DNA of 38,049 nucleotides from a virus (Duplodnaviria; Heunggongvirae; Uroviricota; Caudoviricetes), in the IMG/VR virus record IMGVR_UViG_2802429217_000005, positions 1 through 38,049 of that record. One strand, 5' to 3'. This document shows positions 21,681 through 36,410 of this stretch, one piece after another. Made by a program: the position numbers and the translations under genes. The notes under the pieces were generated by a model. That model saw only the letters and a list, made by a program, of their open reading frames with translations. It ran no database searches and was not told the DNA's origin. The stretch's first letter is position 1, and every line of letters starts with the position of its first letter.

Positions 21681-22346
21681 CTATGAAAATGCCGCCTTTT
21701 GTTTTGAACGTGTTCTCTCCACTAACAATAAAGCTTCACTATCCAGCCGATGAAAAATGTGTTTCATTGCAACCCAGTGACCAGTAAATGTCTTGGACCA
21801 GTTTTTGGTTGTTACTCCCACCAGTAACGCCAGTTCCTGGTATTCATAACCTTCCCCACCAAAAAGCTCAGCTTTTACCGCCTGCGCCGCCAACCAGATC
21901 AACGTCTTCAGGCGCACCAGAGTTTTTCCTGCAATTTTTCTGGTACCGGATTGAGCATTAAATTCAGTCCACGCCCACTGCGTTATCGCGATCTTATACT
22001 CCCAGCAAATGCTACCGCTGTAACACCACAGCACCCACGCCTTCTGATGCTCTTCAAGAGACAGAACGGCGCGTCGCCATGATGATGTCGAAAACTCAAC
22101 CGGACTGACCAGGGCAATTGATGAACCTTTCGCCAGCGATTGCTTTCCCGGGATCGGTGGATTATCCAGCGTTACTATTTTTCCAGTGACCTTATCGCGG
22201 TACCGGATTTTTTTACGTCTGTAACGCCCTGTATTGAACATGGCATTCTCCTGCCAGGCTTCAAGCTGACCTTTTGTTGCTCCACTCAAATCAGCGGTGG
22301 CGATCGTGAGCTGCTCACGCACAAACTGTAAATACTGGTTATTCAT
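21681..22346 (-). CDS. putative late antiterminator Q (non-lambda Q family)
   Basis: 221 aa from the ATG at 22346, which overlaps the rusA stop; position directly after RusA and before a promoter-terminator pair matches Q; family identity is from recall only. Confidence 0.5.
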   Translation of the reverse strand: MNNQYLQFVREQLTIATADLSGATKGQLEAWQENAMFNTGRYRRKKIRYRDKVTGKIVTLDNPPIPGKQSLAKGSSIALVSPVEFSTSSWRRAVLSLEEHQKAWVLWCYSGSICWEYKIAITQWAWTEFNAQSGTRKIAGKTLVRLKTLIWLAAQAVKAELFGGEGYEYQELALLVGVTTKNWSKTFTGHWVAMKHIFHRLDSEALLLVERTRSKQKAAFS

Positions 22347-22702
22347 GCGCACTCCAGTTCTGTGATTTTTATCCCCAGCCGACCACCGGGAATAACCTGA
22401 CCGCGCATAATATTAACTTCATCAAACTGCTCATCGTCGATAAGCAGTCCCGCATGTGTCAGTGCATCCAGTGGTGCTTTCAGAATATTGTCCAGGTCAC
22501 GACGGCGCTTATCCGGCGGCTCTGCAATAATTTTTATTGCCAGCCTTCCGGACAGATTTAATTTCAGTCGCTGCTGGCGAACAATAAGCGCCACATCCCG
22601 GCGATAACGCTCCCCTGCTTTTGATACAAAATATGTGCTGCCACGACGACGCCAGTAGGTATTCACCGTCGGAGGGTAAGGCAAAACAAATTCTATCCCC
22701 AT
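22343..22702 (-). CDS. rusA: Holliday junction resolvase RusA
   Basis: 119-aa ORF with the RusA signature (LPYPPTVNTYWRRRG ... PDKRRRDLDNILKAPLDALTHAGLLIDDEQ); AGAGG Shine-Dalgarno. Confidence 0.9.
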   Translation of the reverse strand: MGIEFVLPYPPTVNTYWRRRGSTYFVSKAGERYRRDVALIVRQQRLKLNLSGRLAIKIIAEPPDKRRRDLDNILKAPLDALTHAGLLIDDEQFDEVNIMRGQVIPGGRLGIKITELECA

Positions 22703-22714
22703 CAGTAACCTCTT

Positions 22715-23764
22715 TTATCCGAGTACGCCCGTTGCAAAGGCGTGATCAAGAAAACGAAAAATTAAATCAACCTGAGAACCATGCTTTTCTTCGAACGCCT
22801 GCGGATCTGCATGAAGTTCGTTGTGATGTTCCCGGCACAGCGGCAACGTAAAAATATCGTGGGCTTTTGTCCCCATTCCGCCCTGACCGTGACCAATCAG
22901 GTGATGGGGATCGTCTGCTGGCTTACAACAACATGTACACGGCTGTGTCTTTACCCAGCGCGTGTATTTCTCATTCACCCAGCGGCGACGTTTAGGCCGC
23001 TTCATGAATGATTCCGGTGACTCCGGATCAACGGCAATGCTGACCACCGTCTTTTCCTGTGGTGGGTTCTGTTGCTGGTGGGCGTGAGGCAACAGCGCAA
23101 AATTTTTTGTGCGCTGCTTCAGTATGCTGGTGGCTGTCTGTTCTCCCGGTATGATGTCACTCTCGCGGTATACTGAGTGGATTTTTTCCGCGCGTAACCC
23201 CAGAGAACGATGTAATACTGCCTCCGGTATTGCGTCCGCTACCTGATTGCAGAGCGCCCACCAGGATAATTCAGCCAGCGATAATTCCCGTTCTTGTGCA
23301 CCACTTATTGCGTGACGTATGACGTCAATCATCCAGGCTGTCAGATTTTGTTGAGCAAGCTGCCCGAGTGATTCGGATGTCTGGTCGCGCAGCTGGTTGT
23401 CGCAGTGCCAGCACAACACCATTGCGCCGGTACCGTAACGATGTATGACGGTTTCACTGTGGTGATAGTCTCCATGAGGCCACTGGCAGGATTTAACATG
23501 ACGCAGGAGCCAGTCAGACAGTGCGCCAGCGCCGCCAGCAGCACGAATCACACGCTCATCGCTGAAAAACGGCAGCAATGTTTTATCTTCCGCCAGCGGC
23601 TGGCGAACGGCAGGAACGACTCCGGACGGCAGACCGCGCATGTTTTTCGGTTCCTGCTCCACCAGCACCCTGCCGTTATGGAATACCTGCATGGATTCAC
23701 GGCCTGGCTTAACGATAACCAGCCCAAGTTCCGGTACCAGAACAGGTCGAAGTAATACCCGCAC
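22715..23764 (-). CDS. DUF968-family protein (YdfU-like) with C-terminal Cys/His cluster
   Basis: 349-aa ORF; C-terminal QPCTCCCKPADDPHHLIGHGQGG ... LPLCREHHNELH; resembles prophage YdfU as recalled. Track start is a GTG; an ATG alternative is at 23692. Confidence 0.6.
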   Translation of the reverse strand: MRVLLRPVLVPELGLVIVKPGRESMQVFHNGRVLVEQEPKNMRGLPSGVVPAVRQPLAEDKTLLPFFSDERVIRAAGGAGALSDWLLRHVKSCQWPHGDYHHSETVIHRYGTGAMVLCWHCDNQLRDQTSESLGQLAQQNLTAWMIDVIRHAISGAQERELSLAELSWWALCNQVADAIPEAVLHRSLGLRAEKIHSVYRESDIIPGEQTATSILKQRTKNFALLPHAHQQQNPPQEKTVVSIAVDPESPESFMKRPKRRRWVNEKYTRWVKTQPCTCCCKPADDPHHLIGHGQGGMGTKAHDIFTLPLCREHHNELHADPQAFEEKHGSQVDLIFRFLDHAFATGVLG

Positions 23765-23765
23765 G

Positions 23766-24044
23766 TTACCTCCAGATCCGTTGCTGGAATGTGCGGGACT
23801 GACGCGGTGGGCGTTCGGAATAAGGAAGCCTGACGTAGATTATCCAGTGACGATAATCGGGGCTGAGGGCTTTCTTAATCTCGTATCCGCGTCTGCGGTA
23901 GCAATGAATTAACCATTCAGCCTGTTCTTCAGTGCATGGAGAATGCTGGAACCAGTCCGATTTGAATGCGTGAAAACGCCGTCCGCACCTGCTGGCAAAG
24001 ACGGCAGAATCATCAGAATTGTGTAATTTGGTATCGTGCGCCAT
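23766..24044 (-). CDS. hypothetical protein
   Basis: About 92 aa from the ATG at 24044 (MAHDTKLHNSDDSAVFASRCGRRFH...); directly upstream of the DUF968 gene; no family recognised. Confidence 0.35.
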   Translation of the reverse strand: MAHDTKLHNSDDSAVFASRCGRRFHAFKSDWFQHSPCTEEQAEWLIHCYRRRGYEIKKALSPDYRHWIIYVRLPYSERPPRQSRTFQQRIWR

Positions 24045-24503
24045 CGGTTGTCTCTGCTGGCGCAGCAGGTGCCAGTTGTTCAGGCTGGCGTATAAAGTAT
24101 AAATAAACTGGTTCCAGTGTAAAGCCCCTACATTAATGAAATAAAAATCAAACAACAGATTGCTGGGATAAAACACAACGCTTATTATTAAAAGCGATTA
24201 GATAAATTAAATTTTAATGTTATGCAAATTTGCCAGATCACCATAATATCTCGTTTGAAACCACCGAAATAACAACCATATCAATATTGATTATGTTAAA
24301 GCGAGTAAATATGGAAAACAACAAATCTGCACATTACGCTCCTTTTTTATCTGTGATACTTTTTGTTTTATGCTGTGTGTGGGCATTATTTTTATAAAAA
24401 TATTTACAGATAAAATAAACCCGCCGAATCAAGTTAAGTGTGGGTGCATTGAGGATGCCTGACTCATCAGAGGTGGCGAGGGATTTCTCCCTCGCCAGGT
24501 CTC

Positions 24504-24659
24504 TTACTCCTCAGGTTCGTAAGCTGTGAAGACAGCGACCTCCGTTTGGCTGGTTCGGATTCGTACCTCACAGAGATCTTTCCTCGTTACCAGTGCCGTC
24601 ACAATGACGGTTAAACAGATGACGATCAGGGCGATTAACATCGCCTTTTGCTGCTCCAT
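24504..24659 (-). CDS. hok: Hok-family type I toxin (HokD/RelF-like)
   Basis: 51-codon ORF missed by the >=60-aa track: MEQQKAMLIALIVICLTVIVTALVTRKDLCEVRIRTSQTEVAVFTAYEPEE, near-identical to E. coli HokD as recalled; AGGAG 9 nt upstream. Confidence 0.85.
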   Translation of the reverse strand: MEQQKAMLIALIVICLTVIVTALVTRKDLCEVRIRTSQTEVAVFTAYEPEE

Positions 24660-24841
24660 AGCCTGCTTCTCCTAGCCTTTCGGCACGTAAGAGGCTAACC
24701 TACATTTGTGAGACATAGATTGGGCCTCAGATTAATGTTAAGCGTCTTGCAGGACGCTTAATGTTAACTGTGCTTTTCTTTATCTGCCTTTTGGTGTTCA
24801 TGCCTGAGACAGATAGCCTCAATCACCCGCAGCGATTTTAC

Positions 24842-24856
24842 TTACCCTCCCCTCTA
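24842..24856. repeat. left copy of a 15-bp perfect direct repeat TTACCCTCCCCTCTA
   Basis: Exact 15-mer, repeated at 25962-25976; the flanks continue as an imperfect repeat (CGATACTACAAC vs CGATATACTA...GCTACAAC). Confidence 0.8.
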
Positions 24857-24943: not shown

Positions 24944-25168
24944 ATGCATATGCCCACACTTATCGGAAAAGTGCTTCGTCGATACACAAGTGCTGTAGCA
25001 ACCCATGTTGACACCCATCTTGAGCAAACGACAAAATATCGTCTTACAGTTGATGCGAACGGTAATGCCACCCTGAACATAGAAAACCCAGAAGTTCAAG
25101 CAGACATCATCAAGAAAATGAAACAATTGCGAAAACTACATAACCGTACAGACAAGGAAGTTGCTTAA
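24944..25168 (+). CDS. small basic protein of unknown function (first gene of the repeat-bounded operon)
   Basis: 74-aa ORF (likely start at the ATG at 24950, GGAGAG 6 nt upstream); its TAA overlaps the ATG of the next gene (TAATG); candidate -35 TTGTCT / -10 TAATAA upstream. Confidence 0.5.
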   Translation: MHMPTLIGKVLRRYTSAVATHVDTHLEQTTKYRLTVDANGNATLNIENPEVQADIIKKMKQLRKLHNRTDKEVA

Positions 25169-25959
25169 TGGGTCCATTGATTATAACTGTGATTCTCGTG
25201 TGTGGTTTTTGGTACACCGAGAATCACTATCAATCGAGAATTCATCACGCAAGAACAAATGGGTGGTCATCCTATTTCTACGTTGCAATGCATGGGTGTC
25301 GTTTTGTTGCTCAAGGATTTCTTTTGACGCTCGGGATCTACATGCTTTTCTGGCTACTGAACTCTATCCCACACATAATCAATATTTTCCGAGACAAACC
25401 TATAGAATGGCATTTTTTTAATTGGTTACTTGAAACCAAAGTGATGGAATTACCACTTTTTGCTGTCATCACCATCATTTTCGCTTGTTGTATTGCTTAC
25501 TCTGAGGGGGTGGATGCGCGAAAAGAAATGGAGAATGAAGAAGCGCGCCAAAAGGCTTACAGGGAGATGGCATCAAAAGATTCACTAGAAAACCTATTGA
25601 TCCAAGCCATTGACACAGAGATGCTGATTTTTGTAACACTAAAATCCAGAAAAGTATATATCGGGTATGTGTCAGCACCACGTGTTGAATTCCACAACAG
25701 TGCGCATCTTGAGATCATACCATTCATTAGTGGTTACAGAGATAAGGACTCACTACGCTACATAGAACAACACCGATACTATGATCTCTATCTATCCAAA
25801 GAAATCACATTTGAGTCCGAACCATTAAATTTACAACATTTTCGACACGTCATTCCTATCGAACAAATTGAAGCGATCTCGCTCTTTGATGAAAGCACGT
25901 ACAGCGATTTTGAAAGATTTTCCGAGCCAATGCCTGACACAAAGCAATTACCAGTATAG
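25168..25959 (+). CDS. membrane protein with three N-terminal TM helices and a ~150-aa C-terminal domain, unknown function
   Basis: 263-aa ORF, translationally coupled to the upstream gene; AAGGAAG Shine-Dalgarno; visibly AT-rich; no family recognised. Confidence 0.6.
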   Translation: MGPLIITVILVCGFWYTENHYQSRIHHARTNGWSSYFYVAMHGCRFVAQGFLLTLGIYMLFWLLNSIPHIINIFRDKPIEWHFFNWLLETKVMELPLFAVITIIFACCIAYSEGVDARKEMENEEARQKAYREMASKDSLENLLIQAIDTEMLIFVTLKSRKVYIGYVSAPRVEFHNSAHLEIIPFISGYRDKDSLRYIEQHRYYDLYLSKEITFESEPLNLQHFRHVIPIEQIEAISLFDESTYSDFERFSEPMPDTKQLPV

Positions 25960-30467: not shown

Positions 30468-30893
30468 TTAGTGCATCACCACAGCATTTCCTGCCGGGCC
30501 ACCACGATTCATCTGATTGAAACCGGCGATTGCCACTGCGACAAAATCATCAGCGTCTCTCACCAGTCGTTCCCGCGTCTCCACCAACTCCCGAAAATAG
30601 ACTGAACTGTGGCTGCGCATCCGGGCCACCAGCAGAGGTGGCATTGCTTTTTCGATCGCTGGTAACAACGCCTGAATTTTTTCAACCGCATCAGTGGTGT
30701 CTTTCTCCACCCAGCGGAAAATTTTCTGGGTATTACGAGCCAGGGCTTCTGGATGGCTGTCGTCGTACAGTTCCGGGGACGTCATTCCCAGTTCGAAATA
30801 AGCCCTGGTTATCTTGGCCGCCGGAACTTTTTCACCATCCGGACGCGCCCAGGCATTCATAGCCATGCGGATGTGTTCATGCTTGATTTTCAT
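30468..30893 (-). CDS. YdaT-like protein in the cII position
   Basis: 141-aa ORF starting MKIKHEHI..., directly downstream of the Cro-like gene (ATGA overlap); resembles Rac YdaT as recalled. Confidence 0.45.
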   Translation of the reverse strand: MKIKHEHIRMAMNAWARPDGEKVPAAKITRAYFELGMTSPELYDDSHPEALARNTQKIFRWVEKDTTDAVEKIQALLPAIEKAMPPLLVARMRSHSSVYFRELVETRERLVRDADDFVAVAIAGFNQMNRGGPAGNAVVMH

Positions 30894-31209: not shown

Positions 31210-31860
31210 ATGATGATGGAAAGCCTTGGCATTAGGCTTAAGAGACTCAGAAAAGACAAGGGACTGACCCAAGTCGAACTGGGCAAGCTTTCTGGCGTAA
31301 CAGGGGTAACTATAGGGTACTGGGAGAAAGACCTAAACGAACCCGGTAGCAAAGCTCTTAGTAAATTAGCCCAAGCACTAGGAACTACTGAGTCCTATCT
31401 CCTATATGGAGTATCGTCTACTGAACCTACCCTTGTGCAGAACAATTCAGGCACCCAAATCCCCTATCTTTCATGGGGGGAAGCAATTTCTTTCCTAATT
31501 TTAGAAGGAGAGAAAACTATGGGAAATGCCGACAGAATCACCACATTCTTTGACGTCAAGGAGGGGGATTTTGCCGTTTCAATGCCTGATGACACTATGC
31601 ACAACCCATCAGGGTCGCCAAGCATTCCGGTTGGTGCCACAGTGATCATGAGGCCTAGAGAAAAATATAAAAATGGTAGTATCGTCGCTGTAATAGTCCC
31701 AGATCCGCTTACAAACGAACCATCTATGACTATAAAAAAATTAGTCATCGACGGAAAACTCGTGTATTTAAGCCCCCTCAATCCTCGCTATCAATCGTCC
31801 TTACTGACACCTGAATGTAAAATTGTTGCTGTAGCAAAAGGTGTGCAGTTCAGCCTATAG
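31210..31860 (+). CDS. CI-like prophage repressor (HTH-XRE N-terminus, S24 LexA-type peptidase C-terminus)
   Basis: 216-aa ORF; N-terminal LKRLRKDKGLTQVELGKLSGVTGVTIGYWE HTH; C-terminal FAVSMPDDTM ... IVAVIV ... MTIKKLV consistent with an S24 Ser/Lys autoprotease; GGGAGA Shine-Dalgarno. Confidence 0.85.
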   Translation: MMMESLGIRLKRLRKDKGLTQVELGKLSGVTGVTIGYWEKDLNEPGSKALSKLAQALGTTESYLLYGVSSTEPTLVQNNSGTQIPYLSWGEAISFLILEGEKTMGNADRITTFFDVKEGDFAVSMPDDTMHNPSGSPSIPVGATVIMRPREKYKNGSIVAVIVPDPLTNEPSMTIKKLVIDGKLVYLSPLNPRYQSSLLTPECKIVAVAKGVQFSL

Positions 31861-33357: not shown

Positions 33358-33415
33358 TTTTCTGGTGACGTTTGGCGGTATCAGTTTTACTCCGTGACTG
33401 CTCTGCCGCCCTTTT
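33358..33415 (+). ncRNA. dicF: DicF small RNA
   Basis: TTTCTGGTGACGTTTGGCGGTATCAGTTTTACTCCGTGACTGCTCTGCCGCCC followed by TTTTT matches the recalled 53-nt DicF sequence and its terminator. Confidence 0.8.
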
Positions 33416-33935: not shown

Positions 33936-36410
33936 ATGAGTAAAGTCTTTATTTGCGCCGCCATTCCTGACGAACAGGCAATTACGGAAGAAGGTGCAGT
34001 TGCTGTAGCCACTGCCATCGAAGCTGGTGACGAACGCCGCGCCCGTGCCAAATTTACCTGGCAATTCCTGGAGCAATATCCGGCTGCTCAGGACTGTGCT
34101 TATAAATTTCTTGTCTGCGAGGATAAACCCGGCATGGCCCGCCCTGCCCTTGGTTCCTGGGATACCGAATATATGCAGGAAAACCGCTGGGATGAGGGAT
34201 CGTCTTCCTTTGTCCCGGTCGAACCAGAGCCGAATACAGAAATTGTTAACTTTAATCAGTTATCCGACGACAAACAGGCCGCTGTTCTCGTTAAGTTTGG
34301 CGCACATGAAAACGTCACCGTGGATATGGTCATCAACGCAAGCGGGCTTCTTGGCGATGACGACATGATGACCTTTGACGGACACCTCGCAGAGGCAATT
34401 ATCCGGACTAAAGAAATTAACGCCATGTATCCGGAACGTCAGATTGAATACATCAACGATGCCAGACGTGATTTAAAACCAACCGCCAAATGGCCCGACG
34501 TTCAGGCATATTTTCTCGACCGTAAAAAACGCCAGGAAAAGGAGCGCAAAGAAGGTGGTGCATATACTTCTGTTGTTGATCTCGCCCGCGCCAGCGTCAA
34601 CCGGCAGAACACTGAAAACTCAGTAGCAAAAATCAACCCTGTCACTACTGCCATTCGTCGCGAATACAAGCAGACATGGAAAACACTGGATGATGAACTG
34701 GCCTACGCTCTGTGGCCTGGTGACATTGATGCCGGAAACATTGACGGCAGCATCCATCGCTGGGCAAAAAATGAAGTTATCGACAACGACCGCGAAGACT
34801 GGAAGCGTATCTCGGCATCAATGCGCAAACAACCTGATGCCCTTCGCTACGACCGCCAGACTATTTTTGGCCTTGTCCGTGAACGTCCGATCGACATTCA
34901 CAAAGACCCTGTGGCACTGAACAAATACATTACTGAATACCTGACTACAAAGGGCGTGTTTGAAGATGAAGGAAGAAATCAGAGCGCAACTGATACTCTC
35001 TCGTCGCCAGTACCAGAAACTGATGCAGTGGAAACGGCAATTCCGGACAACGAAAAAACCGAATGCAAAGTGGAAGTCGAACCATCTGTAGAGCGTGAGG
35101 GGCCGTTCTACTTCCTCTTCACCGACAAGGATGGCGAAAAATACGGTCGCGCAAACAAACTTTCTGGTCTGGATAAGGCACTGGCTGCCGGGGCTACTGA
35201 AATCACGAAAGAAGAATATTTCGCCCGCAAAAACGGTACATACTCAGGTTCACAACAAAATACTGGTGCATCTGATACGACCGCACAACCAGGGCCGGTA
35301 AAAGTTACCGCTGACGAAGTAAACAAAATTATGCAGGCAGCCAATATCAGCCAGCCTGACGCCGATGAACTGCTTGCAGTATCACGCGGTGAATTTGTTG
35401 CAGGGATTAGCGATCCGAATGATCCGAAATGGGTAAAGGGGATTGAAACCCGCGATTCTGTGAACCAGAACCAGCAAGAAACGGAACAGAACGATCAGAA
35501 AGCGGAACAAAACAGCCCAAATACGCAACAAAACGAGCCAGAAACGAAACAACCTGAACCAGTAGTGCAACAGGAACCGAAAAAGATCTGCACCGCCTGC
35601 GGTCAGAGCGGTGGCGGCAACTGCCATGATTGTGGTGCGCTGATGGGCGACGCAACATACCAGGAAACATTCGATGACAAGAACCAGGTTGAAGTTCAGG
35701 AAGACGATTCGGAGAAAATGGAAGGCGCTGAACATCCACACAAGGGGAATGCTGGCAGCGCTCAGGACCACGCCAGCGATAGTGAAACTGGCGAGAGGGC
35801 AGATCCCTTAATTACGGTGAACGGTCATCACGTTATCACATCCACCAGCAGGACGTGTGACCATCTAATGATCGACCTTGAAACCATGGGAAAAAATCCT
35901 GATGCCCCGATCATCTCAATAGGTGCAATATTTTTCGATCCGCAAACCGGAGATATGGGACCGGAATTTAGTAAGACTATCGATCTGGAAACTGCTGGCG
36001 GAGTCATTGATCGGGACACCATTAAATGGTGGCTTAAGCAATCACGCGAAGCGCAATCTGCCATTATGACCGATGAAATCCCGTTAGATGATGCACTGTT
36101 ACAATTGCGGGAATTTATCGACGAAAACTCCGGTGAATTTTTTGTTCAGGTTTGGGGAAATGGAGCCAACTTCGACAACACGATTTTGCGCCGTTCATAC
36201 GAACGGCAGGGGATCCCCTGCCCGTGGCGTTACTACAACGATCGCGATGTACGCACAATCGTTGAGCTGGGGAAAGCCATAGACTTCGATGCCAGAACGG
36301 CTATTCCATTCGAAGGTGAGCGCCATAATGCACTTGATGACGCCCGTTACCAGGCAAAATACGTTTCAGTTATCTGGCAAAAACTTATCCCGAGTCAGGC
36401 TGATTCTTAA
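33936..36410 (+). CDS. RecE-like exonuclease: large N-terminal region plus C-terminal DEDDh (DnaQ-like) 3'-5' exonuclease domain
   Basis: 824-aa ORF; central block LLAVSRGEFVAGISDPNDPKWVKGIETRD resembles RecE; C-terminus has LMIDLETMG, WGNGANFDNTIL and HNALDDARY (DEDDh-like); Cys cluster CTACGQSGGGNCHDCG. Confidence 0.7.
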   Translation: MSKVFICAAIPDEQAITEEGAVAVATAIEAGDERRARAKFTWQFLEQYPAAQDCAYKFLVCEDKPGMARPALGSWDTEYMQENRWDEGSSSFVPVEPEPNTEIVNFNQLSDDKQAAVLVKFGAHENVTVDMVINASGLLGDDDMMTFDGHLAEAIIRTKEINAMYPERQIEYINDARRDLKPTAKWPDVQAYFLDRKKRQEKERKEGGAYTSVVDLARASVNRQNTENSVAKINPVTTAIRREYKQTWKTLDDELAYALWPGDIDAGNIDGSIHRWAKNEVIDNDREDWKRISASMRKQPDALRYDRQTIFGLVRERPIDIHKDPVALNKYITEYLTTKGVFEDEGRNQSATDTLSSPVPETDAVETAIPDNEKTECKVEVEPSVEREGPFYFLFTDKDGEKYGRANKLSGLDKALAAGATEITKEEYFARKNGTYSGSQQNTGASDTTAQPGPVKVTADEVNKIMQAANISQPDADELLAVSRGEFVAGISDPNDPKWVKGIETRDSVNQNQQETEQNDQKAEQNSPNTQQNEPETKQPEPVVQQEPKKICTACGQSGGGNCHDCGALMGDATYQETFDDKNQVEVQEDDSEKMEGAEHPHKGNAGSAQDHASDSETGERADPLITVNGHHVITSTSRTCDHLMIDLETMGKNPDAPIISIGAIFFDPQTGDMGPEFSKTIDLETAGGVIDRDTIKWWLKQSREAQSAIMTDEIPLDDALLQLREFIDENSGEFFVQVWGNGANFDNTILRRSYERQGIPCPWRYYNDRDVRTIVELGKAIDFDARTAIPFEGERHNALDDARYQAKYVSVIWQKLIPSQADS

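What the first reader, a model, noticed from the sequence alone, without database searches (positions are those of the whole stretch)
24504..24840. hokD-like toxin gene not in the ORF track, without relBE
A 51-codon Hok toxin ORF (24504-24659) is present and intact. In the Qin prophage hokD lies downstream of relB-relE, but here the upstream 280 bp contains only a 9-bp-stem palindrome (24738-24761), a GC hairpin in the 3' region (~24469-24490) and a short out-of-frame ORF, then the opposite-strand cassette. Whether it is a self-contained hok/sok-type locus or a silenced remnant is unclear.
Basis: partly seen in the sequence, partly recalled or inferred. Interest (0 to 1): 0.45.

Follow-up and report, generated by a model that had tools for sequence, protein, structure and literature searches.

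The report
Complete hok/sok toxin-antitoxin module, probably disarmed
This is an ordinary, already described prophage hok/sok (hokW-sokW type) toxin-antitoxin cassette with its full RNA control region, not an orphan like K-12 hokD; its one unusual feature is a set of lineage-specific point mutations that probably weaken both toxin translation and antitoxin transcription.

Summary
The 51-codon Hok ORF (24504-24659, minus strand) is real and intact (Pfam HOK_GEF, E 7e-22). The roughly 170 nt upstream are not empty. They hold the whole hok mRNA leader and the antisense sok gene (Rfam RF01794, full length, 81.8 bits). The module (about 24412-24840) is 89-95% identical to hokW/mokW/sokW of phage 933W/Sp5, an experimentally validated type I toxin-antitoxin system. 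It sits in the nin region next to DUF968-RusA-Q, where K-12 Qin carries hokD. In K-12, homology stops 17 nt upstream of the ATG and relBE replaces the leader, so this window shows the complete form.

The GC hairpin is the conserved 3' stem-loop. The 5' tac and 3' fbi elements pair in the predicted fold.

The allele carries about 12 substitutions absent from 90 unique relatives:
- One base (24674) makes a TAG stop in mok codon 15 and changes the sok -35 from TTGCCT to TAGCCT.
- Others give Hok K2E, a tac C-to-A change and a broken terminator stem.

Homologous changes in plasmid R1 abolish Hok toxicity. The kind of system is already known. The allele is probably attenuated, but this is untested.

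The parts
24835..24840 (-). Inferred hok promoter -10 (TAAAAT), 6 nt upstream of the inferred hok mRNA 5' end. Homology among relatives begins here (TAAGTA[A/G]AAT).
   Evidence: Alignments. The spacing matches the R1-type locus, TATGAT-N6-G(+1). The -35 (ATGAAC, 3 of 6) comes from the non-homologous flank. Inferred, not mapped.
24817..24828 (-). tac element at the 5' end of the hok mRNA (GGGUGAUUGAGG). It carries the lineage-specific C-to-A change at 24823, homologous to R1 C5.
   Evidence: Pairs with fbi in both the MFE and centroid structures. 24823 is A only in this lineage. In R1, any substitution of G4, C5 or T6 abolished toxicity (PMC9841398).
24729..24770 (-). Long hairpin of the hok leader, which on the opposite strand is the Sok stem-loop.
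   Evidence: Rfam alignment. Terminator-like call on the plus strand at 24732-24767 with tail CTGTGCTTTT. Folds. The private base at 24758 turns a mismatch seen in all relatives into a pair.
24708..24778 (+). sok antisense RNA gene (71 nt): a 5' single-stranded tail complementary to the mok start region, then a hairpin and a U-rich tail.
   Evidence: Coordinates transferred from the sokW annotation of phage 933W (AF125520) by alignment. Fold z = -4.1. Northern probes and the promoter mutant in PMC8621323 support the homologous sokW.
24673..24701 (+). sok promoter: -35 at 24673-24678 (TAGCCT; TTGCCT in all relatives), a 17-nt spacer, and -10 at 24696-24701 (TAACCT).
   Evidence: The -10 is the element mutated in the sokW 'pro-less' construct (primers YO-421/422). 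The -35 is inferred from the 17-nt spacing and homology to the R1-type TTGCGC-N17-TATCCT. The T-to-A change in the -35 is absent from 3,711 E. coli records and 128 other loci.
24672..24728 (-). mok translation start region and truncated mok: SD GAGG at 24725-24728, ATG at 24714-24716, 14 codons (MSHKCRLASYVPKG), TAG at 24672-24674. It is in frame with hok and ends 12 nt before the hok ATG.
   Evidence: Translation. 87 of 90 unique relatives have a 70-codon mok in frame with hok; only this window has 14 codons. Premature mok stops upstream of the hok start abolish Hok translation in R1 (PMC9841398).
24504..24673 (-). hok SD (AGGAG, 24669-24673, overlapping the mok TAG) and the hok ORF (24504-24659, 51 aa). 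Private changes are K2E (24656) and G37S (24551), plus three private synonymous changes (24576, 24570, 24546).
   Evidence: K2E equals the R1 suppressor A177G, for which no Hok protein was detected (mapping).
24475..24496 (-). Stable 3' stem-loop just after the hok stop codon (10 bp, GGCGAGGGAG-AAAU-CUCCCUCGCC type). It corresponds to the terminal stem of the processed (truncated) hok mRNA.
   Evidence: Folds. It is conserved in relatives. In R1, breaking this stem destabilises the truncated mRNA.
24442..24454 (-). fbi (fold-back inhibition) element, CCUCAAUGCACCC. It pairs with tac over 12 bp with a one-base bulge.
   Evidence: Pair table; centroid. The tac and fbi variants among relatives are listed.
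24412..24434 (-). Degenerate intrinsic terminator of the hok mRNA. Relatives have ACCCGC-TTCG-GCGGGT plus a T run. Here the left arm reads CTTGA, with private changes at 24432, 24431 and 24429.
   Evidence: -4.4 kcal/mol here against -12 to -15 in relatives, and unique among 91 sequences. No minus-strand terminator was called.

Best explanation
The locus (about 24412-24840, minus strand) is a complete hok/mok/sok type I toxin-antitoxin module of the hokW-sokW / 'hokD' subfamily carried by lambdoid prophages. It lies in the nin region and points the same way as early-right transcription towards Q.

Mechanism, by homology to R1 hok/sok and Sp5 hokW-sokW:
1. A weak promoter makes a roughly 415-nt hok mRNA. 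Its 5' tac pairs with the 3' fbi, which keeps the mRNA closed.
2. 3' trimming back to the stable stem-loop (24475-24496) would open the leader.
3. Ribosomes would then start at mok (SD 24725-24728, ATG 24716), and their passage would expose the hok SD and AUG.
4. The 71-nt Sok RNA (24708-24778, plus strand) pairs with the mok start region, blocks translation and triggers RNase III cleavage.

In this particular lineage the module is probably attenuated or silent:
- One substitution (24674) converts mok codon 15 to TAG. This ends mok 12 nt before the hok AUG, at the hok SD. The same base change turns the sok -35 from TTGCCT to TAGCCT.
- Hok carries K2E.
- The tac element carries C-to-A.
- The terminator stem is broken.

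What is shown: the homology, the presence of the elements, the predicted end-pairing, and the uniqueness and persistence of the mutations. What is inferred: all expression and toxicity consequences.
For: Identity of the module:
- Pfam HOK_GEF at E 6.7e-22.
- Rfam RF01794 full-length hit at 24657-24826, 81.8 bits against a gathering score of 59.
- 89% identity over 412 nt to the annotated mokW/hokW/sokW of 933W and VT2-Sakai, and 93-95% to other phage and E. coli 'hokD' loci.
- hokW-sokW has been shown experimentally to be a type I TA system (PMC8621323).

Completeness:
- K-12 hokD shares only AGGAGAAGCAGGCTATG upstream of its ATG and gives no Rfam hit.
- tac (24828-24817) pairs with fbi (24454-24442) in the MFE and centroid structures, z = -5.5.
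- Sok has a hairpin plus a U tail.

Attenuation:
- T at 24674 is absent from all 3,711 matching E. coli complete-genome records (none at 100% identity) and from 128 of 129 pattern-selected loci.
- Only this window has a 14-codon mok, against 70 codons in 87 of 90 relatives.
- Mapping to R1 numbering places 24823 at C5, 24674 at A159 and 24656 at A177.
- In R1, any C5 substitution, A159G, five premature mok stops upstream of the hok start, and A177G (K2E, protein undetected) each abolish toxicity (PMC9841398).
- The Rfam score is the lowest among hokW-family relatives, which score 95.6-118.1.
- The terminator stem is destroyed.

The allele is real and persistent:
- The same TAG, K2E and tac-A haplotype occurs in a metagenome contig and four independent assemblies, one with flanks 2.4% diverged.
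- The exact Hok protein is listed in 70 blocks of the collection.
Against: - No expression or toxicity data exist for this allele.
- The consequences are transferred from R1, whose Hok is only 44% identical to HokW and whose mok is in a different frame.
- A stop 12 nt upstream of an AUG, with a good SD in between, often still allows termination-reinitiation.
- The hok ORF is intact, and its private changes are 3 synonymous to 2 non-synonymous. That fits continued purifying selection, or a divergent but functional allele brought in by recombination.
- tac-fbi pairing is kept through a shifted register.
- The private 24758 change improves the Sok hairpin.
- The within-lineage 24771 C-to-A change could partly restore the tac stem.
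- Both -10 boxes, both SDs and both start codons are intact.
- 933W-type loci also lack the downstream terminator and are functional (PMC8621323).
- In-silico reversions gave no clear change in SD accessibility.
- The overlap of private substitutions with R1 suppressor positions is not statistically compelling, because about 24% of R1 positions (117 of 486) are suppressor positions.
Confidence: 0.6

Rival explanations
1. A fully functional hok/sok toxin-antitoxin module. The 14-codon mok still opens the hok SD hairpin. Ribosomes terminating at TAG (24672-24674) reinitiate at the hok AUG 12 nt downstream. Sok still controls this through the mok start region. A weaker Sok promoter is balanced by weaker coupling. 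Hok K2E/G37S remains toxic.
For: - The hok ORF, both SDs, both start codons and both -10 boxes are intact.
- tac-fbi pairing is predicted.
- The Sok hairpin is perfect in this lineage.
- Private changes in hok are 3 synonymous to 2 non-synonymous.
- The haplotype persists in at least 5 independent assemblies and with diverged flanks.
- 24771 C-to-A arose within the lineage and could create a U-A pair in the tac stem next to the disrupted pair.
- K5 is retained. From my own recollection of their sequences, other Hok homologues (HokA, HokE) lack K2.
Against: - In R1, five premature mok stops upstream of the hok start, K2E and any C5 substitution were each sufficient to abolish toxicity.
- The -35 TTG-to-TAG change removes one of the most conserved promoter bases.
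- No other of more than 5,500 surveyed loci tolerates this base.
- The Rfam score is 14-36 bits below relatives.
Confidence: 0.33
2. An orphan, leaderless hokD-type remnant as in E. coli K-12 Qin: a toxin ORF without sok, mok or the tac/fbi control elements. Under this reading the palindrome and the hairpin are unrelated features.
For: RefSeq pipelines label close relatives 'hokD'. The protein differs from K-12 HokD at only two residues (alignment).
Against: - There is a full-length Rfam leader hit here and none at K-12 hokD.
- K-12 homology ends 17 nt upstream of the ATG, whereas this window aligns with hokW/sokW for 170 nt upstream.
- The palindrome is part of the conserved leader hairpin in all relatives.
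Confidence: 0.02
3. The unusual bases (the TAG in mok, K2E and the others) are sequencing or assembly errors in an otherwise standard hokW/sokW locus.
For: They are absent from 5,426 complete E. coli genomes.
Against: The same haplotype is found in an ENA metagenome contig, two NCBI assemblies and two Logan assemblies.
Confidence: 0.01

Closest known systems
hokW-mokW-sokW of Stx2 phages 933W / Sakai prophage Sp5 (AF125520; Takada et al. 2021, PMC8621323)
   Same: - 89% DNA identity over the whole 412-nt module.
- The same element order: hok -10, tac, target hairpin, mok start, sok promoter, hok SD, 51-aa Hok, 3' stem-loop, fbi.
- The same sok -10 (TAACCT) and the same Sok 5' end position by alignment.
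- Prophage-borne.
   Different: - The genomic position differs. This module is in the nin region upstream of DUF968-RusA-Q. In 933W it lies near the right end of the genome.
- mok is cut to 14 codons by a TAG, against 70 codons in frame with hokW.
- The sok -35 reads TAGCCT, against TTGCCT.
- Hok carries K2E and G37S, and a C-terminus of TAYEPEE against VDYESEK.
- The tac element carries C-to-A.
- The mok codon 2-5 / Sok 5'-tail allele is different (MSHKC against MLNTC).
hokD (relF) of the E. coli K-12 Qin cryptic prophage
   Same: - Same prophage neighbourhood: rem/ydfU(DUF968)/Q downstream, and dicF in the same element.
- The Hok protein differs at only two residues.
- The 3' stem-loop, fbi and terminator region are homologous.
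   Different: - K-12 has lost everything upstream of the hok SD (tac, target hairpin, sok gene and promoter, mok start) to the relBE junction.
- K-12 hokD gives no RF01794 hit.
- This window keeps the full leader and has no relBE.
hok/mok/sok (parB) of plasmid R1
   Same: - Same family and logic.
- The conserved 5' GG(N)GCUUGAGG tac, the GAGG mok SD, the AAGGAGAAG hok SD region and the fbi complementarity are shared.
- The Sok promoter overlaps the 3' part of upstream mok.
- An R1-type locus (L136, Hok 100% identical to R1 Hok) hits the same Rfam family.
   Different: - HokW shares only 44% identity with R1 Hok (PMC8621323).
- This leader has a 16-nt longer target hairpin.
- mok in the W subfamily is in frame with hok.
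- This module is on a prophage, not a plasmid.
- This allele carries changes equivalent to R1 loss-of-toxicity mutations.
hokC (gef)/mokC of the E. coli chromosome
   Same: From my recollection of the K-12 annotation, not re-checked here: the leader ORF is an in-frame N-terminal extension of the toxin ('Gef + leader', 69 against 50 aa). The Hok sequence is closely related.
   Different: It is a chromosomal, non-prophage locus.

Membership tests
hok/sok (Hok/Gef) type I toxin-antitoxin family | About 50-aa Hok/Gef membrane toxin ORF | tested here: met
   PF01848 at E 6.7e-22, covering model positions 1-42 of 42. The ORF is 51 aa and intact.
hok/sok (Hok/Gef) type I toxin-antitoxin family | Conserved structured hok mRNA leader, from the 5' end to the hok AUG | tested here: met
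   RF01794 at 81.8 bits (gathering score 59), model positions 1-157 of 157, on the hok-sense strand and ending at the hok AUG. This is the lowest score among hokW-type relatives.
hok/sok (Hok/Gef) type I toxin-antitoxin family | 5' tac / 3' fbi end-pairing that closes the full-length mRNA | tested here: met
   12 bp between 24828-24817 and 24454-24442 in the MFE and centroid structures, z = -5.5. This is a prediction only.
hok/sok (Hok/Gef) type I toxin-antitoxin family | cis-antisense Sok RNA gene with its own promoter and terminator, overlapping the mok start region | tested here: inconclusive
   The transcribed part, the -10 (TAACCT) and the terminator hairpin with U tail are present. The inferred -35 is mutated from TTGCCT to TAGCCT, uniquely in this lineage. 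No transcript data exist.
hok/sok (Hok/Gef) type I toxin-antitoxin family | mok reading frame that starts upstream and is translated through the hok start region (translational coupling) | tested here: not met
   The mok SD and ATG are present, but the frame stops at TAG 24672-24674, 12 nt before the hok AUG. 87 of 90 relatives read through for 70 codons. Coupling by reinitiation is not excluded.
hok/sok (Hok/Gef) type I toxin-antitoxin family | Hok kills the cell and Sok neutralises it | not testable with these tools
   This has been shown for the homologous hokW-sokW (PMC8621323) and for R1 (PMC9841398), but not for this allele.
hokW-sokW / prophage 'hokD' subfamily | End-to-end DNA homology of the roughly 410-nt module | tested here: met
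   89-95% identity over window 24433-24844 to 933W, VT2-Sakai, Tritos, mEp460 and E. coli 'hokD' loci.
K-12 relBE-hokD arrangement (leaderless hokD) | hok ORF directly downstream of relBE, without a leader or sok | tested here: not met
   There is no relBE here and the leader is present. K-12 homology begins 17 nt upstream of the ATG.

The most novel reading that the evidence does not exclude
[quoted passage not shown] Because of that overlap, the single A-to-T change at 24674 both stops mok translation short of hok and cripples the antitoxin promoter. The lineage could therefore lose the antitoxin without being killed. The other private changes (Hok K2E, tac C-to-A, broken terminator) would then be further suppressor-type or neutral decay, mirroring the survivors of laboratory FASTBAC-Seq selection on R1.
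Probability: 0.35. Interest if true: 0.35.

Novelty: already known. Interest (0 to 1): 0.2.

Why it matters
The main value is in annotation. Many prophage genes labelled 'hokD' are in fact complete hokW/sokW-type modules with leader and antitoxin, unlike the truncated K-12 hokD that gave them the name. Short-ORF tracks miss both the toxin and the RNA gene.

The allele is also a small natural test case. It shows how the overlapping arrangement of sok promoter, mok and hok SD lets one base change affect toxin and antitoxin together. It also suggests that an intact toxin ORF need not mean an active toxin. If confirmed, this would caution against counting hok ORFs as functional TA systems in genome surveys.

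Tried and rejected
- The sigma-70 consensus scan found no promoter on either strand. It needs 9 of 12 matches. By my count the experimentally supported sokW promoter has only 7 of 12, so this negative result is uninformative.
- In-silico reversion of each private leader substitution, followed by ensemble accessibility of the mok and hok SD and AUG in the truncated mRNA, gave only small, inconsistent shifts. I treat this as inconclusive.
- Supplementary Table S6 of PMC9841398 is not held. I could not check whether the R1 Q15 stop, or the R1 equivalents of G37S and the three synonymous sites, are suppressors.
- I considered whether the private substitutions are significantly enriched at R1 suppressor positions. 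With 117 of 486 positions being suppressors (40% within hok), the overlap is suggestive but not statistically strong, so I do not claim enrichment.
- I considered that the palindrome is an operator or a terminator for the neighbouring plus-strand cassette. I rejected this because it is part of the conserved hok leader hairpin in all relatives.
- Pfam and PADLOC scans of the neighbouring plus-strand genes gave nothing.
- The genome-contig scan returned only six loci, all with the ancestral A. Some carry odd taxon labels (Xanthomonas, Haemophilus MAG) that look like contamination.

Full report
**Observation**

The minus strand of 24504-24659 encodes a 51-residue ORF, MEQQKAMLIALIVICLTVIVTALVTRKDLCEVRIRTSQTEVAVFTAYEPEE. 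It matches Pfam HOK_GEF (E 6.7e-22) and PHROG 251 'MokW-like host killing'. The palindrome at 24738-24761 is exact. The GC hairpin after the stop codon lies at 24475-24496. There is no relBE. The next genes upstream are a plus-strand pair at 24944-25959.

**What the upstream region is**

An Rfam scan of the whole window gives a full-length hit to RF01794 ('sok') at 24657-24826 (81.8 bits, gathering score 59, E 7.5e-17). The hit is on the hok-sense strand. The model runs from the hok mRNA 5' end to the hok AUG, so it describes the hok leader, to which Sok is antisense.

BLAST against phage records shows that window 24433-24844 is 89-94% identical to a module present in many lambdoid phages. In 933W and VT2-Sakai this module is annotated mokW, hokW and sokW. 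In 5,426 complete E. coli genomes, 4,721 have a related sequence, usually labelled hokD or Hok/Gef family protein. hokW-sokW of Sakai prophage 5 has been shown experimentally to be a type I toxin-antitoxin pair. HokW is toxic and membrane-localised. sokW expressed from its own promoter neutralises it. The locus aids phage release after mitomycin C (PMC8621323).

**Relation to K-12 hokD**

In K-12 Qin the gene order is ydfT(Q)-ydfU(DUF968)-rem-hokD-relE-relB. This window has Q (21681-22352), RusA, DUF968 (22715-23764), a small ORF and then hok, with DicF at 33360-33411. Aligned to K-12, homology covers the hok ORF and its 3' region but stops 17 nt upstream of the ATG (AGGAGAAGCAGGCTATG). Everything further upstream in K-12 is the relE flank. 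K-12 hokD gives no RF01794 hit, whereas 933W, EC43, a Rac-like phage, L005 and an R1-type plasmid locus all do. The window therefore carries the complete form of the module, of which K-12 hokD is a truncated copy.

**Anatomy (minus strand unless stated)**

- The hok -10, TAAAAT, is at 24835-24840, 6 nt before the inferred 5' end at G24828. The spacing matches the R1-type locus.
- tac is GGGUGAUUGAGG, at 24828-24817.
- A long leader hairpin spans 24770-24729.
- The mok SD, GAGG, is at 24728-24725, and the mok ATG is at 24716.
- The hok SD, AGGAG, is at 24673-24669, and the hok ORF is at 24659-24504.
- The 3' stem-loop is at 24496-24475, and fbi (CCUCAAUGCACCC) is at 24454-24442.
- On the plus strand, transferring the 933W sokW coordinates by alignment gives Sok at 24708-24778. 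It has a single-stranded 5' tail complementary to the mok start, an 18-bp hairpin and a U-rich tail. The terminator scan found this hairpin, and it folds with z = -4.1.
- The sok -10, TAACCT (24696-24701), is the element that Takada et al. mutated to silence sokW (primers YO-421/422).
- The sok -35 is inferred at 24673-24678, from the 17-nt spacing and homology to the R1-type TTGCGC-N17-TATCCT.
- The 417-nt hok mRNA folds at -154.7 kcal/mol (z = -5.5). In both the MFE and centroid structures the 5' tac pairs with fbi over 12 bp with one bulge. This is the canonical closed conformation described for R1 (PMC9841398).

**What is unusual about this allele**

I collected 128 further loci containing the conserved 35-mer around the hok SD and aligned the 90 unique ones with the window. 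The following window bases occur in none of them:

- 24823 (tac, C to A)
- 24771
- 24758
- 24674
- 24656
- 24576
- 24570
- 24551
- 24546
- 24432, 24431 and 24429, three bases in the left arm of the terminator stem

The change at 24674 (A to T in the hok sense) has two effects:

- It turns mok codon 15 (AAG) into TAG. mok then ends after 14 codons, 12 nt before the hok AUG and overlapping the hok SD. By contrast, 87 of 90 relatives have a 70-codon mok in frame with hok.
- On the other strand it changes the sok -35 from TTGCCT to TAGCCT.

A 46-nt probe centred on this base matched 3,711 E. coli records, none at 100% identity. The base is not an error. One metagenome contig (99.97% identical over 3.8 kb) carries it. 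So do four independent assemblies found through the exact Hok protein, one of which has flanks 2.4% diverged. All of these also carry K2E and the tac A. The exact protein is listed in 70 blocks of the collection. Within the lineage 24771 is polymorphic (C in L133 and L134, A here), so that change is the most recent.

**Functional reading**

I mapped the window to R1 numbering through an R1-type locus whose leader is 5 nt shorter than the R1 reference. The offset was checked against the mok and hok start positions quoted in the paper. The mapping gives 24823 = C5, 24771 = C73 or C74, 24674 = A159 and 24656 = A177.

In the R1 suppressor screen of Le Rhun et al. (PMC9841398):

- Every substitution of G4, C5 or T6 abolished toxicity by weakening the tac stem of the active mRNA.
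- A159G was a suppressor.
- A177G (K2E) was a suppressor, and no Hok protein was detected from it.

Three or four of the private changes here therefore correspond to single mutations that each disarm R1 hok. The same base that truncates mok also removes a key base of the antitoxin promoter. That would be lethal only if hok were still fully active.

In addition, the Rfam score of this leader is 14-36 bits below hokW-type relatives. The terminator hairpin is reduced from about -13 to -4.4 kcal/mol. The hok module is also a divergence hot spot. It has 25 differences from strain EC43 in 434 nt, against about 22 in the adjacent 3.1 kb.

**Caveats**

- R1 Hok and HokW share only 44% identity, and R1 mok is out of frame with hok.
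- A stop 12 nt before an AUG, with a good SD in between, may still allow reinitiation.
- The hok ORF is intact, with 3 synonymous to 2 non-synonymous private changes. The excess divergence could equally mean that a divergent but functional allele was recombined in.
- tac-fbi pairing is retained, because the former bulged U now pairs with the new A.
- The 24758 change perfects the Sok hairpin, and 24771 C-to-A could add a U-A pair to the tac stem.
- 933W-type loci also lack the downstream terminator and still work.
- In-silico reversions did not change the predicted SD accessibility in a clear way.
- About a quarter of all R1 positions are suppressor positions, so the coincidence is not statistically decisive.

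I put roughly 0.6 on 'complete module, attenuated or silent in this lineage' and roughly 0.33 on 'still a working toxin-antitoxin pair'.

**Context and possible role**

The window is a lambdoid, DicF-carrying prophage:

- A cI-like repressor is at 31210-31860 (plus strand).
- The early-right genes, hok, DUF968, RusA, Q, holin and terminase are all on the minus strand.

hok is therefore co-oriented with PR-to-Q transcription. Read-through during induction would run against the sok promoter. This inference fits the reported disappearance of sokW RNA and the RecA-dependent appearance of HokW after mitomycin C in Sp5. It was not tested here, and in 933W the module sits elsewhere in the genome.

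**Verdict**

The kind of system is already known (hokW-sokW, a prophage hok/sok module). The locus is self-contained by architecture, unlike K-12 hokD. The only point of moderate interest is the natural suppressor-like haplotype, in particular the single base that hits mok, the hok SD region and the sok -35 together.

Noticed in passing
window 33360-33411 (+): Full-length DicF sRNA (RF00039, 76.7 bits, the same score as K-12 dicF). The prophage is therefore of the Qin/dic type.
   Followed up: partly
window 24944-25168 and 25168-25959 (+): Two overlapping plus-strand genes (74 aa and 263 aa, ATGA start/stop overlap) are inserted against the direction of the early-right operon, just upstream of hok. 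They match only PHROG families of unknown function (32583, 3630/23864) and have no Pfam or PADLOC hit. This looks like a moron-like cassette of unknown role.
   Followed up: partly
window 24702-24713 (mok codons 2-5 = Sok 5' tail): Among 90 relatives with an otherwise near-identical leader, mok codons 2-5 are hypervariable (MNGKS, MLYTR, MSHKC, MLNTC, MLDTC and others). This is exactly the stretch complementary to the single-stranded 5' end of Sok. It suggests allele-specific Sok/hok recognition that would limit cross-talk between the several copies per genome (median 2, up to 9 places per genome).
   Followed up: partly
window 24417-24850 against L002 (E. coli EC43): The hok module is a local divergence hot spot: 25 differences in 434 nt against about 22 in the next 3.1 kb. 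DUF968 (about 22800-24000) is a second mosaic block, roughly 10-12% diverged in EC43 and L133.
   Followed up: partly
L003 (Escherichia phage Rac, MN652886) 1130-1343: This relative has one extra T before the hok SD, which puts mok out of frame with hok (annotated mok 1130-1336). An R1-type plasmid locus (L136) has mok in frame, unlike R1 itself. The mok frame is therefore not conserved, consistent with translation rather than the Mok product being what matters.
   Followed up: no
window 33936-36410 (+): An 824-aa protein in the early-left region with a C-terminal Rv2179c-like 3'-5' exoribonuclease domain (E 2.9e-67).
   Followed up: no
window 30468-30893 (-): A 141-aa protein with a YdaT_toxin domain (E 3e-10) lies next to the cI-like repressor (31210-31860, plus strand), in the cII-like position of Rac/Qin-type immunity regions.
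   Followed up: no
L006, L007, L008 (genome-contig hits): Near-identical E. coli-type hokW leaders sit on short contigs labelled Xanthomonas pisi, 'Candidatus Scatousia' MAG and a Haemophilus MAG. There is also a 94% match in 'Actinobacillus phage vB_Apl-pPE4' (H26). These are likely contamination or mis-binning rather than real host range.
   Followed up: no
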